Below are positions 41,101 to 47,100 of a DNA stretch of 51,097 nucleotides, one piece after another. The DNA is taken from the NCBI GenBank assembly GCA_001938485.1, contig MQRK01169514.1, forward strand, positions 1 to 51,097, given 5' to 3'. The stretch's first letter is position 1, and each line of letters begins with the position of its first letter. This stretch comes from Girardia tigrina (Eukaryota). The position numbers were made by a program.

Positions 41101-44100
41101 TAATGTCCATGATTTAAGGAAAGGTTTTGTCTATTGATGAAAAAGTTCGCCGCGAAACTCGCCATTATGTAGATGATATCATTGTAAATGAAGACATAGT
41201 GAGCGTCGAAGAAGTACGGAATCATTTATCGAAGTACGGTTTACAATGTATAGACCCAGAGGAACTAAACGGAGCGAGAGTTGGATTAATGGATTACAAT
41301 GGAATGAAGAGTTTATTAATTTTAATCGTGCTGTAATGGATCGTTGGAATGTGGATATGAGCCGAAAATGTACAATATGGTGCGATGCAAGTTCTATTGC
41401 CATCGGATGTGTGTTGCAAATCGAAGACCATGTGATCGAAGATGGAAGCTGGTTAAGACAAGAAAATGATTGTGCACATATAAGCTGTTATCTTCTTTCG
41501 GAACGGCCGAATACTCCATAATAAAGAAATAAAGAGCTTTTTCGTAAAAATTTATTTCAATCAACAATTTTATACTTTTTTTGAATTGTCACCAAACTCT
41601 GAATATTAAAACAATTTCTTTATTTTAATATGATTCAGTTATTTTGGAGGAACCAATTTATTTAAATTACCAACCATATATAGTACAGATATTTATATAA
41701 ATAAAAATAGTTTAATTATTTAATTATTTAACTTAATTATTATGATGAAATTTTCTTAAANNNNNNNACATTATTATTCATTTAAATCAATTTAATTAAT
41801 TTAATTTAAATTCCATGCGGAATCAACTAAATTAATTTAAATTAAATTAATTATCCATCAAAAATTTTAGCTTCTAATTTAATCCCTAACATAAGCATTG
41901 CTGAGCTTGAAGCGATTATGAAAGGAATTAACTTGGCTTTGAAGTGGAATATGAAGAAGTTATTAATAATTACAGATTCAGTTGTAGTTCATGGTTGGCT
42001 CGCATCGTTGAAGACAAGAAAAAGCCGAATAAAATTAACCGGAATGAGTGAGATATTGGTCAGGAGACGTTTGGCTGTGATAGACAGTATTTTAAACGAG
42101 TCCGAAATAGATGTGGAGTGTGATTGGGTTCTCTCAGAACTAAACAAGACAGATGTCTTAACTAGAGTACCACGAAAATGGACAGAAAGGAAATGTTGTA
42201 TTGTTCAACAATAGAGAAAATTAAATGAGGCAAGAAAGAGTCATGAGCGACATCATTTTTAGATCGAGAAAAGCTGTCTGATAGCAGAAAAAACAAGGCA
42301 TTGAAATGTCGAAAAATGATATGGAGAGTGTCGTTCGAAACTGTCGACGGTGTAGTAGTATTGATTCCGCCCCTATAAAAACATCAAAGCGAACATTATC
42401 AGTAGAAAATGTTGGAAAAGATTGACTATAGATCATACTCATTACAAGAATAGAGTATATTTATCAGTAATTGATTGTGGACCTAGTCGATTTTCTATAT
42501 GGAGAGAAGTAAAAACTAAAGGAGTCGGCGACGTAATAAAAATTCTCGATGAATTATTTATGAAGCATGGTTCTCCTACAGAAATCCCTGTTGACAATGG
42601 AGCTTTTACAGGAGACAAATTCAAACAATTGCGTATTAAATGAAGTGTTAAGATAGACTATTTATATGCACATAGACCCAGTACGAACGGTATTGTGGAG
42701 CGCTGTTTGTTAAAAAATATTAAACTTATTTTAAATTGATTTTCTAATAAACTTTTTATTTTTAAAATAATTTTGCAAAAAAATATTTAACTTAACTTTA
42801 ACTTTAATTTCTTTAAAATATTTGTGTTCTACTTGACACGTTTTACCCAATTTATTGTTTTTATTTATTTTAAAATTCTTATTTTAGAACTCTTATTAAA
42901 TATTAAATATTATTATATTAATAGAAACTTTTTATATTTTTAAATTTTATGTACTTTTTTATTAAACATAATTATCTAATTTTTGTTGACTTATTAAAAA
43001 TATCCTTTTTAACTTTTTTATTTTTATGAACTTTGCGTTTTTATGTTATTATTTAATTTTGTTAAAATTTTAAATAAAAAAACTATTTGATAAATTGCAA
43101 ATTTTAACAAACTCCTTGTAAAAATAACCAGAAATAATTGAGACAGTTTTCCGATTAATTTTACTTTATTTTTTTATATTTTTATCCAAATTTTTGTACA
43201 TTCTAAATATCTGCAAAGCAAAATGTAAAGATCGATTAATTGATGCTGTCTGAAATGATCAACTTTCACTGCAGCAACATAAATCATAATTGCGACTACA
43301 CGATGGACATGCCATGTGTGAAATGTTACATGAAAACAAGTATTGATCATAGTGAAAATACAATTTAAGTATATGATGACCTTCTAGAAACATATAACAA
43401 AATCTATTCAGTACTTATTGTACCAAATGATCTAGGCGGAATTTATACGAAACAACTGCAGTGATTTGCGGAATGTTGAGGAATTTTTAATTTTCGTCCT
43501 TTTGTAAAATAATTATAACATTAATTGTAAAAATTTTATGCCAACAAGCGAAAAATATTTATCTGAATCGCCTCTTAAAATAAACAGAAAAGCACAAATT
43601 AACTTTTTTTCTAAAGGAAAAATAAGATAATTCATTATTGTCATTTATTATCCCCCTGTGCTTAAAGGGATAGAAAATTCCCAAAAAGGATTAAACTAGA
43701 TGCCTAAAGTGAACTTTTATTTGATAAAAGAAAATCTTTTTATTAGTTATTTTAATTATTTCTTTAATATTTTTTTTATTTTTTAGTTTTTTTTCATTTT
43801 ATAATTAATAGTAAAATTAAAATTTAAAAGATAAAGTTTAGGACTTATATTGGTTAGGAAAATAATTTAATAAAACTAATATTTATTTACTAGGGAAAGA
43901 CCCGTCAGATATGTCGGGGGAGTTAAATTTCGTCTTTTAAAGTTTCTGTTTTAATTTAAAAATCGTAGTTATAATTTATTATTTCGAATTGGGTGTTTAA
44001 TTTTTCAAATTTTTTAAATTTCATTTTTTTATTTTCCTTATAAACAATAACCCTAACCATAACCCTAACCCTAACCCTAACCCTAACCCTAACCCTAACC

Positions 44101-47100
44101 CTAACCCTAACCCCTAACCCTAACCCTAACCTAACAGTAACCCTAACCCTTAACCTAAATCCTAACAATAATCCCTAACCCTAACCCGTAAAACGATTTT
44201 TGCCACAAAAAATTTAAATTAATTTAATTATCTACTTACTTTTGTAAGTAAATAATATGAGCGTTACGTAGATGAAACATTGGGCTTTTATATATATAAT
44301 GATTGTTTCAGAATTTAAATGAATATTTATTTATATTTTGGAAATTATTATTATTTATTTATATTTCAAATGATTTTTCAAAGACAATCAACCGTGATCA
44401 AGTCTCATGTTGCAGAAACTTTTAATCGTTCTTTTTTATCATGTTGAATTGTTTATTGCTGATTGATTTTCTTGCTGTTTATGTTTTTTAAAAATATGAA
44501 AAATAATAATTAGAAATGAAAATGAAATTAAATAATTCAAATTAAACAGAAAAATTAAATTAAAAAATAATTATTATGATTTAAATTATTATTCAAATCC
44601 AGACAAGGAATTCTTTGTCTGGACTTATTGGATTGATTACGCTGTGCCAATGTCTGTGCCAGTGTAGGTGAGATAAAAATAATTAAGTTAAATGGCTTGC
44701 CCTGATTGGTTGACTCAATTGGCGTGACGACAAATAATTTGAATATTCATTGCAAGAGCGCATCGAATTTTTAAATTTTATTTTTTTAAAAATTAGCAGA
44801 CATTTTCCGTTTGACTCTTTCTGTGCTGGTATACAAATCTACAGGGTGACACAAAATAAACTCTAATGTACTTTTCTATTGGATCTTTTTATCCACTTAC
44901 TTTTTTAACAACATCAATATGAGGTTTACAACATTTATTAATATTACAAGCACATTCACTATTTGACATCTCTCTTGATCAATATTTTTTTCTGTCTTCA
45001 AACTAATTAAATTCAATAAATGAAAATCTGTTAATAGCAATTATTAATTATAAAGAATCTAATTGGTTAAAATTAAATCTAAACATTTTTTTAAAAATTA
45101 GAACATAATAAATTAATATATTAAAATTTTTAATTACATTAAAAATAAATAATACATGCAATAATTATTTAAAAATCTTTTTACTTTAAAATTAAATTAA
45201 ATTATTTTTAATTAGTATGAATCAAAGAAAATATCAATCATTCATCTGTGTAGGAGAGGCACAATCCAAATCAACATTCTACATGCACAATATCAACACA
45301 TAATTCAAAACATTCCTCGCATGCCCCTCGGTTTAAATGGCTTTAGCCATTCGACATTTCTAATCAAAGTTCTACCATCTTCGAGCTGTAACTCGTAACT
45401 CCTTTCGTGATTTCGCTTAAACACAATTGCCGGACCCATGTAACGGTCATCTTCTTTTGATATATTTTCTTTCTTTATCAACACTCTGTCTCCAACTTCA
45501 AAAACTCTTCTTGTCTCCACAATTTGTTCGACATTAACTTGGTTTCCGTTAGTTTCTTTATTGTTCTTCCACCAATGTCTTAATCGTTTCCCAAATATTA
45601 TTTCAGCAGGTGAAACACCTGTCGTAGCTTGAACTGTACTATGAGGATTGATCAACTCGACGCAATCCATTTGTTTCAACTGGCGACACTGACAGCGAAG
45701 AAGACGATCACGGAACAGGTCGTATGTCACAAAGAAGCTTGCAGCGAATTTTGAAAGAAGACATACAGATGCGTCCCTATCATTTGCAAATGGCTCATGC
45801 CTTGGAGGAGACCAACTATGCCGCTCGAATTGAGTTTGCTCGAACCGAATTGGATCGATTGGATGAAGATGCAAACAGACTCAACAATCTTCTTTTTACG
45901 GATGAAGCACACTTTCATTTGAACGGAAGCGTCAATTGTCAAGACTGGAACATGTGGGCCGATGAAAATCCTCATTGGTTTGATGTTCGTCGACTTCATC
46001 CTCAAAAATTGACAGTTTGGATGGAAATTGGTGTCGAAGCTGTTGTTGGCCCATATTTTTGGGAGCAACAAGGAAATGAGCGCGGAATCAATTGTCGTTG
46101 GATGACTGAATTGTATCAAGAGCACGTTATTCAAGAGCTTCAAACTTGGCCGAATTTCAATTCTCACATTGAGCAGCATGACGGCGCTCCGCCACACATT
46201 CTTAGAGATTTTCTTGAATTGTTGGGTCAACAGTTTCCAAATCGATGGATAGTTTGCAGAACACGGGCGTATTCTGCTCCAGTTAGATGGCCACCTCGCT
46301 TGCCAGATTTTACAGAATGTGACTATTGGTTGTGGGGCTACATGAAAGGTCGAATTTATCATCGCAAACAACGTCCAAGCACACTCGAAGAGTTGAGAGC
46401 AGCGATTGAAGGAGTTGTCAATGAAATCTGTGGAGACCGCGCACTTCGTGAACAGACGACTTTTGCATGAATGTTTTCTTAGAGATGGAGGACAAGTTGA
46501 AATTCGATAATTAATTATTGTTATGCTTTTATGGAATAAAAAGCTTGTTAAATATTTCGTCTCAAAATTTTTTTTTAATTTTTGATGTTTTTTTTCGATT
46601 TTTTTATATACCATCAGAATTTGGCGACGCTCAGGATTCTAAAAATGTATACTTTACCTATAAAAACGTAGGTGGATAAAAAGATCCAATAGAAAAGTAC
46701 CTTGGAGTTTATTTTGCGTCACCCTGTATAACAAAAAATGGGGGTCAGGAGAATAATAAAATATCCTTTGGCGAAGAAGGTATTAAAATTACTGTGAGGA
46801 ATATTTTAAATTGTTTGAAATATTGATGATGTATGTTGATTTGAGTATGTTGTAATTAGAATGGTGATTCTTCCACCTAAATGGAAATTGGTATTGTGTA
46901 TAATTAAAGTGATTGACTATTGGAACATAATTAAAATAATAATTTGTATATATTTTTTAAATTAACAACCAAAATTAAGTTTAATATTTTTTAATAAAAT
47001 TTAAATTAAATTCATTTTCAAATATTCGATAACATTTCTTTATTATTTTGGGTTTTTTTTAAGAAATGGTTTAAATTATTATTTTTAATTAATATTTTTA

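What the first reader, a model, noticed from the sequence alone, without database searches (positions are those of the whole stretch)
43890..44302. Non-autonomous Helitron carrying a telomeric (TTAGGG)n array
A 413-bp element with Helitron hallmarks (A|TC...hairpin-CTAG|T) contains about 140 bp of TTAGGG on its sense strand. Sibling copy A has the same termini but only one ccctaac (about 7401) plus CA/CT microsatellites inside. This suggests a rolling-circle family with a swappable microsatellite core that could spread interstitial telomeric sites (G-quadruplex, shelterin docking). Alternatively, telomerase healed a break inside this one copy.
Basis: partly seen in the sequence, partly recalled or inferred. 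Interest (0 to 1): 0.7.

Follow-up and report, generated by a model that had tools for sequence, protein, structure and literature searches.

The report
Telomere repeats inside a Helitron-like repeat
A 140-base run of telomere-type repeats sits inside an old, decayed copy of a small mobile-DNA family that looks like a non-autonomous Helitron. Only one of the two copies in view has it, so it is more likely a local scar than a way of spreading telomere repeats.

Summary
The array is real: 44048-44187, period 6, about 23 units, 15 of them perfect TTAGGG on the minus strand. It lies inside a 413-bp unit (43890-44302, minus strand). That unit shares a 78-nt 3' block (81-82% identity) and a 41-nt 5' block (88%) with one sibling at 7156-7545; the flanks and interiors are unrelated.

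The 3' end fits a canonical Helitron. In the sibling a perfect 16-nt palindrome is followed by 7-8 nt, then CTAG, then T. That signature occurs 6 times in the window against 0.8 in shuffles.

Other features fit less well:
- The 5' TC is present only in the flagged copy.
- The flagged copy's own hairpin has decayed.
- No RepHel gene lies in the window.

Only 1 of 2 copies has the array. The sibling's "microsatellites" are runs of four units.

My best reading is a decayed non-autonomous Helitron-like copy with a private interstitial telomeric sequence in its variable interior. The idea that the family disperses telomere repeats could not be tested, because no genome or eukaryotic collection was searchable. 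Interest is modest.

The parts
43890..44302 (-). Copy B of the repeat family (the flagged element), 413 bp, sense on the minus strand
   Evidence: Similarity to copy A begins and ends near these points. The flanks beyond them are no more alike than shuffles.
43890..43967 (-). Copy B 3' block. It ends in CTAG (43893-43890), and the next base on the sense strand is T (43889).
   Evidence: 82% identical to A arm 1 and 81% to A arm 2; nhmmer E 5.9e-26.
43902..43917 (-). Decayed counterpart of the family's 16-nt palindrome, 8 nt from CTAG
   Evidence: 6 of 8 pairs kept relative to copy A. Fold -4.5 kcal/mol, z -0.9.
43968..44047 (-). Private AT-rich spacer between the array and the 3' block
   Evidence: No alignment to copy A's interior above shuffles (1957 of 2000 shuffles score as high).
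44048..44187 (-). (TTAGGG)n array: about 23 units, 15 perfect, 17 GGG runs. The sense 5' part is degenerate (11 edits in 77 nt); the perfect 8-unit run is at 44063-44110.
44188..44257 (-). Private spacer between the 5' block and the array. It holds a 13-pair hairpin (44227-44256) that copy A does not share.
   Evidence: 1913 of 2000 shuffles score as high; -6.6 kcal/mol, z -2.5, against z -0.2 for the same region of A.
44258..44298 (-). Copy B 5' block, including (TA)5 at 44289-44298.
   Evidence: 88% identical to 7472-7512 over 41 nt; nhmmer E 4.3e-15.
7156..7545 (-). Copy A of the family (the sibling), about 390 bp
7156..7231 (-). Copy A 3' block (arm 1): perfect 16-nt palindrome at 7168-7183, 8-nt spacer, CTAG at 7159-7156, then T
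   Evidence: Fold -7.0 kcal/mol, z -3.8, 0 of 200 shuffles as good.
7243..7310 (+). Second, inverted copy of the 3' block inside copy A (arm 2): palindrome at 7284-7299, 7-nt spacer, CTAG at 7307-7310, then T. With arm 1 it forms a 155-nt palindrome (7156-7310).
   Evidence: 95.5% identical to arm 1. Inverted repeats I1 and I2. Fold of 7150-7318: -67.4 kcal/mol, z -22.
7311..7471 (-). Copy A private interior: one TTAGGG in sense orientation (7401-7406 as CCCTAA on the plus strand), (CA)4 at 7413-7420, (CT)4 at 7421-7428, (TG)3 at 7435-7440
7472..7544 (-). Copy A 5' block (7472-7512) running into (TA)22 (7501-7544)

Best explanation
The flagged 413 bp is an old, decayed copy of a short (about 0.3-0.4 kb) non-coding repeat family. 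I take the family for a non-autonomous Helitron-type (rolling-circle) element. It has a conserved 5' block next to a TA tract, a non-conserved interior, and a conserved 3' block ending in a palindrome, a short spacer and CTAG, with T as the next base. The (TTAGGG)n array lies in the non-conserved interior and, as far as this window shows, belongs to this copy only. I think it is most likely an interstitial telomeric sequence added in place, by telomerase acting at a repaired break, and later reshaped by replication slippage. That would explain a perfect 8-unit core beside degenerate units.

Shown:
- The array itself.
- The two-copy family with shared termini and unrelated flanks and interiors.
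- The Helitron-like 3' end.
- The decay of this copy's hairpin.

Inferred:
- The rolling-circle class.
- The in-place origin of the array.
- That TTAGGG is the host's own telomere motif. The host species was not identified.
For: - Family: both terminal blocks recur once each, in the same order, orientation and spacing, at 7156-7545. The outer flanks are no more alike than shuffles: 1073, 1695 and 841 of 2000 shuffles score as high.
- The blocks as a unit: if the two blocks were unlinked, finding the only other 5' block within about 300 bp of an arm and in the right orientation would have a chance near 0.006. This is my estimate from a 51-kb window.
- 3' end: 3 of 3 arms end in CTAG followed by T. 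2 of 3 carry a perfect 16-nt palindrome 7-8 nt before CTAG. This matches the canonical definition read in PMC4067079: 3' CTRR and a 16-20 nt palindrome about 11 bp from the end.
- Rarity of that signature: a scan for it finds 6 in the window against 0.8 +/- 0.97 in 100 shuffles (maximum 4), and 2 of the 6 are the copy A arms.
- Interiors: they are unrelated between the copies, as is usual for non-autonomous Helitrons, which share only their ends (PMC4067079, passage).
- The array is private: 1 of 2 copies has it, and it is the only such array in the window.
- The array is not young: 12 edits in 140 nt, 11 of them in the 77-nt sense-5' part.
- The in-place mechanism is documented: insertion of telomeric repeats at repaired breaks is described for vertebrates in passages of PMC7215372.
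- Length: copy B without the array measures 273 bp. Copy A without its extra arm and excess TA units measures about 277 bp (arithmetic on coordinates).
Against: - The 5' TC after A is found in copy B only. Copy A has no ATC in the 30 nt upstream of its TA tract. The 5' boundary cannot be placed better than the TA tract plus or minus 4 nt.
- Copy B's own hairpin folds no better than shuffles.
- There are only two copies, no empty site, and no RepHel gene. None of the 173 stop-to-stop pieces of 55 aa or more hits Helitron_like_N or PIF1 (172 scanned, the last covered).
- Copy A contains a 155-nt near-perfect palindrome flanked by TATATA on both sides. That looks like a TIR or foldback MITE.
- Copy A has one TTAGGG in the sense orientation at a similar offset from the 5' block (65 nt against 73 nt). 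By the window's singleton rate (9 in about 102 kb of both strands) that has a chance of about 0.014 anywhere in the 160-nt interior. The motif could therefore be a family feature.
- Nothing in one copy separates break repair from capture of an array-bearing fragment, or from growth by slippage from a seed.
Confidence: 0.45

Rival explanations
1. The family as such carries a simple-repeat module after its 5' block. In many copies that module is a TTAGGG array, so the element spreads interstitial telomeric sites through the genome.
For: - The module order (5' block, simple repeats, spacer, 3' block with palindrome) resembles DINE-1/HINE elements, which carry microsatellites and tandem repeats between their end modules (passages of PMC4067079 and PMC7492417).
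- Copy A has one sense-strand TTAGGG and three short dinucleotide runs at a similar offset (65 nt against 73 nt) from the 5' block.
- The only telomeric array in 51 kb falls inside this 413-bp element.
Against: - 1 of 2 copies has an array.
- Copy A's runs are 3-4 units long and below the TRF threshold.
- The sequences around the motif in A and B do not align, so the positions are not demonstrably homologous.
- Selection effect: the array is what drew attention to this element in the first place.
Confidence: 0.12
2. It is not a Helitron. The 3' block is the terminal inverted repeat of a small TIR or foldback element (the 155-nt palindrome 7156-7310, inserted at TA). Copy B holds a solo arm. 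The array is an ordinary interstitial telomeric sequence in TE-rich DNA.
For: - The arms of the palindrome are 95.5% identical, and it folds at -67.4 kcal/mol.
- It is flanked by TATATA on both sides, which is compatible with a TA or TATATA duplication.
- The window is full of Tc1/mariner elements that could serve as partners.
- The 5' TC is unsupported in copy A.
Against: - The 5' block lies on the same side, in the same orientation and at a similar distance in both loci, although the DNA in between is unrelated. A solo-arm model does not predict that.
- Copy B has no second arm anywhere nearby (nhmmer finds only 3 arms in the window).
- TATATA is its own reverse complement, so it cannot distinguish a duplication from an extension of the palindrome.
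- The outer flanks of the two arms are only marginally alike (90 of 2000 shuffles score as high).
- Each arm carries its own internal 16-nt palindrome at Helitron distance from CTAG.
Confidence: 0.25
3. The array came in as part of a captured or recombined interior, for example from a subtelomeric donor, when copy B's lineage acquired its private 290-bp middle. It was not added in place.
For: - The whole interior of B, not only the array, is unrelated to A's, so a single acquisition event would suffice.
- The array has telomere-like polarity: degenerate units on the 5' side of the G-rich strand and pure units on the 3' side.
- Helitrons accumulate near chromosome ends in several lineages: PMC11934779 (abstract and passages), PMC8022731 (passages), PMC13085455 (passages).
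Against: - No donor can be looked for here.
- Capture by reading past the 3' end would not keep the family's own 3' block at the very end.
- A polarity of decay can also arise from slippage keeping one part of an array pure.
Confidence: 0.15
4. Assembly artefact: telomere-containing reads were wrongly joined into this contig.
For: The window has five N runs, so the assembly is not gap-free.
Against: - The array is flanked on both sides by unique sequence inside one element whose two ends match a sibling in the right order.
- The array is degenerate (12 edits), not a clean terminal telomere.
- The nearest N run is about 2.3 kb away.
Confidence: 0.03

Closest known systems
Canonical non-autonomous Helitrons (definition as given in PMC4067079, passage: 5' TC, 3' CTRR, 16-20 nt palindrome about 11 bp from the 3' end, insertion between A and T, no duplication)
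   Same: - The 3' end is CTAG in 3 of 3 arms.
- A perfect 16-nt palindrome lies 7-8 nt before CTAG in 2 of 3 arms.
- T follows the 3' end in 3 of 3 arms.
- The element is short and non-coding.
- Copies share only their ends.
   Different: - The 5' TC is seen in 1 of 2 copies.
- The 5' end is buried in a TA tract.
- The conserved 3' block is long (about 78 nt) and is duplicated in inverted orientation in one copy.
- No RepHel partner was seen.
Helentron-associated interspersed elements: HINE and DINE-1 (PMC4067079), and oyster Cg_HINE (PMC7492417)
   Same: - The module order matches: a conserved left module, then a microsatellite or tandem-repeat region, then a right module with a 3' palindrome.
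- Simple repeats can make up a large share of a copy. Here they are 140 of 413 bp.
   Different: - No subterminal inverted repeats: no complementary match of 7 nt or more between the first 80 and the last 110 nt is shared by both copies.
- There are no T strings at the ends.
- The 3' end is CTAG.
- The repeat is the telomere hexamer. The passages I read describe 3- to 8-nt microsatellites (mostly 4-nt) and 150-170-bp repeats instead.
Short interstitial telomeric sequences inserted at repaired double-strand breaks (PMC7215372, passages; PMC8537989, abstract in the search listing only)
   Same: - A single-orientation run of TTAGGG lies at an internal site with unique sequence on both sides.
- It meets that paper's working criterion of at least 4 units with at most 1 mismatch per unit (12 edits in about 23 units).
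   Different: - That work is on vertebrates; the host here is unknown.
- No array-less allele is available, so the insertion itself is not shown.
- The array sits inside a transposon copy.
Telomere-associated Helitrons: Paramecium (PMC13085455), Oscheius tipulae (PMC8022731), cnidarian subtelomeric Helitron derivatives (PMC11934779)
   Same: A Helitron-type element and telomeric repeats occur side by side.
   Different: In those cases the elements insert into or sit beside telomeric repeats, so the repeats flank the element. They are also large or tandemly amplified. Here a short array lies inside a 0.4-kb non-coding copy at an internal, TE-rich site.
Palindromic TIR/foldback MITEs
   Same: Copy A contains a 155-nt near-perfect palindrome flanked by TA-rich sequence.
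   Different: Copy B has one arm only, and the conserved 5' block is not an inverted copy of the 3' block.

Membership tests
Helitron (canonical) | 3' terminus CTRR | tested here: met
   CTAG at the point where similarity between copies ends, in 3 of 3 arms.
Helitron (canonical) | 16-20 nt palindrome about 11 bp from the 3' end | tested here: met
   A perfect 16-nt palindrome lies 7-8 nt before CTAG in both arms of copy A (z -3.8 and -2.8). In copy B it has decayed to 6 of 8 pairs (z -0.9).
Helitron (canonical) | 5' terminus TC | tested here: inconclusive
   Present at 44302-44301 in copy B. Absent upstream of the TA tract in copy A. Chance alone gives an ATC within a few bases about 1 time in 10 (my estimate from base composition).
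Helitron (canonical) | Insertion between A and T without target-site duplication | tested here: inconclusive
   T follows the 3' end in 3 of 3 arms. The 5' neighbour depends on where the TA tract is assigned. No empty site exists in the window.
Helitron (canonical) | Autonomous partner encoding Rep/helicase that shares the termini | not testable with these tools
   No Helitron_like_N or PIF1 hit in any of 173 ORF pieces of the window. The source genome is not available.
Helentron / HINE / DINE-1 | Subterminal inverted repeats of 12-15 bp | tested here: not met
   No complementary match of 7 nt or more in copy A. Copy B has only AT-only 7-8-mers.
Helentron / HINE / DINE-1 | Insertion in TT with T strings at the ends | tested here: inconclusive
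   If the TA tract belongs to the element, both copies are flanked by T on both sides. But there are no T strings at the ends.
Helentron / HINE / DINE-1 | Microsatellite or tandem repeats between the left and right modules | tested here: inconclusive
   A clear array in copy B; only 3-4-unit runs in copy A.
TIR MITE | Terminal inverted repeats at both ends plus a target-site duplication | tested here: not met
   For the whole unit, the 5' and 3' blocks are not inverted copies of each other. Only the sub-part 7156-7310 of copy A is palindromic, and its TATATA flanks are uninformative.
Short interstitial telomeric sequence from break repair | At least 4 telomeric units with at most 1 mismatch per unit at an internal site | tested here: met
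   About 23 units with 12 edits in total. The criterion was read in PMC7215372.
Short interstitial telomeric sequence from break repair | An array-less orthologous or allelic locus showing the insertion | not testable with these tools
   No related genome or haplotype could be searched.

The most novel reading that the evidence does not exclude
A small non-autonomous Helitron family whose variable core is regularly a telomere-repeat array. Under this reading, rolling-circle copies seed interstitial telomeric sites (G-quadruplex-prone, able to bind telomere proteins) across an animal genome. The single sense-strand TTAGGG at the matching offset in the sibling would then be the remnant of such a module.
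Probability: 0.1. Interest if true: 0.6.

Novelty: new member of a known kind. Interest (0 to 1): 0.3.

Why it matters
If the array is private, this is one more interstitial telomeric sequence that happens to lie in a transposon copy. It is useful as annotation and no more. If many copies of the family carry such arrays, a mobile element would be a source of internal telomere-repeat sites. Such sites are known to be unstable and to bind telomere proteins (review statement read in PMC12692304). In six searches of the held library I found no description of a small Helitron-type element with an internal telomere-repeat array. This check covered listings and selected passages only. Supplementary files were not consulted, and repeat libraries such as Repbase or Dfam were not available.

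Tried and rejected
- **Other copies in the window.** blastn with word size 7 and nhmmer profiles of the arms and of the 5' blocks found only 3 arms and 2 5' blocks. A candidate at 34029-34081 turned out to be AT-rich similarity without the palindrome.
- **Copies elsewhere.** The only open collection holds prokaryote genomes. The 19-base core that is invariant in all three arms gave 60 loci. All match over the seed only: 13.5 bits or less, against 75-86 bits for true arms, with no 5' block hit.
- **Helentron-type subterminal inverted repeats.** None found.
- **A conserved 5' hairpin.** Present in copy B only.
- **Homology of the two interiors, compared piece by piece.** None found.
- **RNA-derived origin (SINE, tRNA, ribozyme).** 0 Rfam matches at gathering score over the window. 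Two sub-threshold matches near the element lie outside it. 0 tRNAs.
- **Bacterial-type promoter and terminator scan.** At chance level; not relevant to this eukaryotic DNA.
- **Host identification.** The visible part of the mariner transposase is 95% identical to one unnamed protein and 59-72% identical to the other 119 listed proteins, the named ones from bees, nematodes, Hydra and primates. That does not name the host. An ELO-like exon searched alone found nothing.
- **Literature leads that did not hold.** Arabidopsis ATREP18 is telobox-rich but, by its authors' account, not a true transposon (10.1101/2020.11.28.402172, passages). C. elegans telomere-like clusters and Helitron-linked repeats are listed separately and not linked to each other (PMC2831315, passages). 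PMC9071541, PMC12951921, PMC6947457, PMC3762812 and PMC9055855 mention both terms only in unrelated places (passages).

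
Full report
**What is there**

On the plus strand, 44048-44187 is a period-6 tandem array: 23.0 copies, 82% matches, score 190. On the minus strand it reads TTAGGG. Of about 23 units, 15 are perfect. The longest perfect run is 8 units (44063-44110), and there are 17 GGG runs.

Measured against a perfect array it has 12 edits in 140 nt. Eleven fall in the 77 nt on the 5' side of the G-rich strand, none in the 48-nt perfect block, and one in the last 15 nt.

CCCTAA occurs 24 times in the window, 15 of them in this array and 9 as singles elsewhere. 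Shuffles give a mean of 15. The array is therefore far beyond chance, and isolated hexamers are not. It is the only such array in the 51 kb.

**A two-copy family**

A search of the window with 43790-44402 finds one sibling locus:
- 43880-43967 matches 7146-7231 (82%) and, in reverse, 7317-7243 (83%).
- 44258-44298 matches 7472-7512 (88%).

Profiles of these blocks find nothing else: 3 arms and 2 5' blocks in all. A candidate at 34029-34081 lacks the palindrome and is only AT-rich similarity.

Read on the minus strand, both loci have the same order: a TA tract, a 41-nt 5' block, a private interior, and a 3' block of about 78 nt ending in CTAG. Beyond CTAG, and beyond the TA tract, the flanks of the two loci are no more alike than shuffles: 1073, 1695 and 841 of 2000 shuffles score as high.

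These are therefore separate insertions of one repeat, not a segmental duplication. The interiors, compared piece by piece, do not align (1913 and 1957 of 2000 shuffles score as high).

**The 3' end**

In copy A the 3' block holds a perfect 16-nt palindrome, CCGTCATATATGACGG (7168-7183). It is followed by 8 nt, then CTAG, and then T on the sense strand. This is the layout given for canonical Helitrons in PMC4067079 (passage read): 3' CTRR and a 16-20 nt palindrome about 11 bp from the end.

I scanned the window for that layout: a perfect stem of 6 or more pairs with 3 or more G-C pairs, a loop of 0-6 nt, a spacer of 5-15 nt, CTRR, then T. The scan finds 6 sites, against 0.8 +/- 0.97 in 100 shuffles (maximum 4). 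Two of the six are the arms of copy A.

As single-stranded DNA the last 50 nt fold as follows:

| Arm | Energy (kcal/mol) | z-score | Shuffles as good |
|---|---|---|---|
| A arm 1 | -7.0 | -3.8 | 0 of 200 |
| A arm 2 | -6.1 | -2.8 | 4 of 200 |
| Copy B | -4.5 | -0.9 | 33 of 200 |

Copy B keeps 6 of the 8 pairs. The flagged copy thus has the family's 3' end in decayed form.

**The 5' end**

Copy A has no ATC in the 30 nt upstream of its TA tract. In DNA of this composition an ATC within a few bases of a chosen point is expected about one time in ten (my estimate).

Both copies have a TA tract right next to the conserved block, (TA)5 in B and (TA)22 in A. Two readings are possible:
- The tract is part of the element. 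Both copies are then flanked by T on both sides.
- The tract is the host target. The junctions are then A|...|T, but the element does not begin with TC.

Two copies cannot decide this.

**Rival classes**

Helentron-type elements (HINE, DINE-1) share the module order and often carry microsatellites or tandem repeats in the middle (PMC4067079 and PMC7492417, passages). Their defining 12-15-bp subterminal inverted repeats are absent here. There is no complementary match of 7 nt or more in copy A, and only AT-only 7-8-mers in copy B.

It is 95.5% identical to the first and has its own palindrome, CTAG and following T. The two arms form a 155-nt palindrome that folds at -67.4 kcal/mol (z -22) and is flanked by TATATA on both sides. 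On its own this looks like a foldback or TIR MITE.

Three things argue against that as the nature of the family:
- Copy B has one arm only.
- The 5' block is not an inverted copy of the 3' block.
- The 5' block lies on the same side, in the same orientation and at a similar distance in both loci, although the DNA between is unrelated.

I read arm 2 as a later inverted duplication, or a nested 5'-truncated copy, inside A.

**The array within the element**

The array lies in the non-conserved interior, 73 nt after a fixed point in the 5' block. It is followed by an 80-nt private spacer before the 3' block.

Copy A has a single TTAGGG in the same orientation, 65 nt after the same point, next to (CA)4, (CT)4 and (TG)3. 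At the window's rate of single hexamers, a sense-strand hit somewhere in a 160-nt interior has a chance of about 0.014. That is suggestive but post hoc, and the surrounding sequences do not align.

The array is not fresh (12 edits), yet it holds a perfect 48-nt block. That pattern fits continued slippage.

**Context**

The window is AT-rich (about 28% GC) and looks like a graveyard of eukaryotic transposons: mariner, Tc1-like, hAT, non-LTR and LTR-type fragments. I do not take it for human sequence.

None of the 173 stop-to-stop pieces of 55 aa or more hits a Helitron Rep or PIF1 helicase family. Searches scanned 172 of them, and one search covered the visible part of the last.

The host species was not identified. 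"Telomeric" therefore assumes that the host uses TTAGGG. The five N runs were left as they are.

**Beyond the window**

The only open collection holds prokaryote genomes, where the invariant 19-base core gave 60 chance matches limited to the seed.

Six literature searches turned up Helitrons that insert into, or pile up beside, telomeric repeats: Paramecium (PMC13085455), Oscheius tipulae (PMC8022731) and cnidarians (PMC11934779), of which I read passages. I found no small Helitron-type element with an internal telomere-repeat array. Supplementary files and repeat libraries were not available, so this is a weak negative.

**How it most likely works**

I commit to the following, at 0.45.
- The unit is a decayed copy of a non-autonomous Helitron-type family. 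The family and its 3' end are shown; the class is inferred.
- Its array is a private interstitial telomeric sequence, added in place at a repaired break by telomerase and reshaped since by slippage. This is inferred. The mechanism is documented for vertebrates in PMC7215372 (passages).

The rivals are:
- a TIR or foldback element with an ordinary interstitial array (0.25);
- capture of an array-bearing fragment together with the rest of the interior (0.15);
- misassembly (0.03).

**Verdict**

The Helitron label is reasonable for the 3' end and unproven for the rest. The wider claim of a rolling-circle family that spreads telomere repeats has no support beyond one copy and one stray hexamer. 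I rate it a new member of a known kind, of modest interest.

Noticed in passing
window 7156-7310: Near-perfect 155-nt palindrome made of two inverted copies of the family's 3' block (arms 95.5% identical, 11-nt centre, -67.4 kcal/mol as single-stranded DNA), flanked by TATATA on both sides. It may be an inverted duplication or a nested truncated copy.
   Followed up: partly
window 39328-42640 (+): LTR-retroelement-like stretch, the virus-like part of the window. Pfam hits are weak or partial: aspartyl protease, RNase H-type domains and an RVT_3 piece. Integrase-like residues are visible by eye, and no RT core was detected. Nine plus-strand pieces of 55 aa or more lie in all three frames, which means at least 3 frame changes and at least 5 stop-separated joins. 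One 7-N gap lies inside the stretch. No LTR pair was found in the self-comparison. Described only.
   Followed up: partly
window 9546-10928 (-): Mariner element with 39-nt inverted ends (94.9% identical). The visible 287 aa of the transposase read without stops, and the N-terminal part is hidden by the N run 10496-10803. The closest protein is 95% identical and unnamed; the other 119 listed proteins are 59-72% identical, the named ones from bees, nematodes, Hydra and primate SETMAR-type proteins. A second, partial copy at 35567-35980 (+) also abuts an N run.
   Followed up: partly
window 44840-46728: A 1.9-kb element with 68-nt inverted ends (92.6% identical), 540 bp from the flagged element. 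Its 272-aa plus-strand reading frame looks transposase-like by eye but has no Pfam hit. It is overlapped on the other strand by an open frame of about 300 aa and by an integrase-like piece.
   Followed up: no
window 48470-49323 (-): Tc1-like element with inverted ends of about 120 nt (82% identical) that contain 22-bp tandem repeats (48477-48544 and 49253-49316). The DDE_3 domain is split over two overlapping pieces, so there is at least one frame change.
   Followed up: no
window about 21730-21793 (+): Another site with a Helitron-3'-like layout: a 7-pair stem with a 1-nt loop, a 10-nt spacer, CTAA, then T. Three more such sites (45360 +, 12783 -, 12697 -) lie inside coding-like TE remnants and may be chance.
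   Followed up: no
window 18473-18751 (+): Exon-like piece matching the N-terminal part of the ELO (GNS1/SUR4) fatty-acid elongase family just under the curated cut-off (26.2 bits against 27). It is the only hint of a host gene seen. A protein search with it alone found nothing.
   Followed up: partly
window 28312-28782 and 46782-47278: An unclassified repeat of about 500 bp, present twice in opposite orientation (76% over 513 nt). Shorter relatives lie at 20885-21032.
   Followed up: no
window 1068-1102, 2213-2264 and 51046-51097: Short matches of 96-97% identity link both sides of the N run 1182-2150 to the last 50 nt of the window. This suggests another copy of a masked repeat at the window's end.
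   Followed up: no
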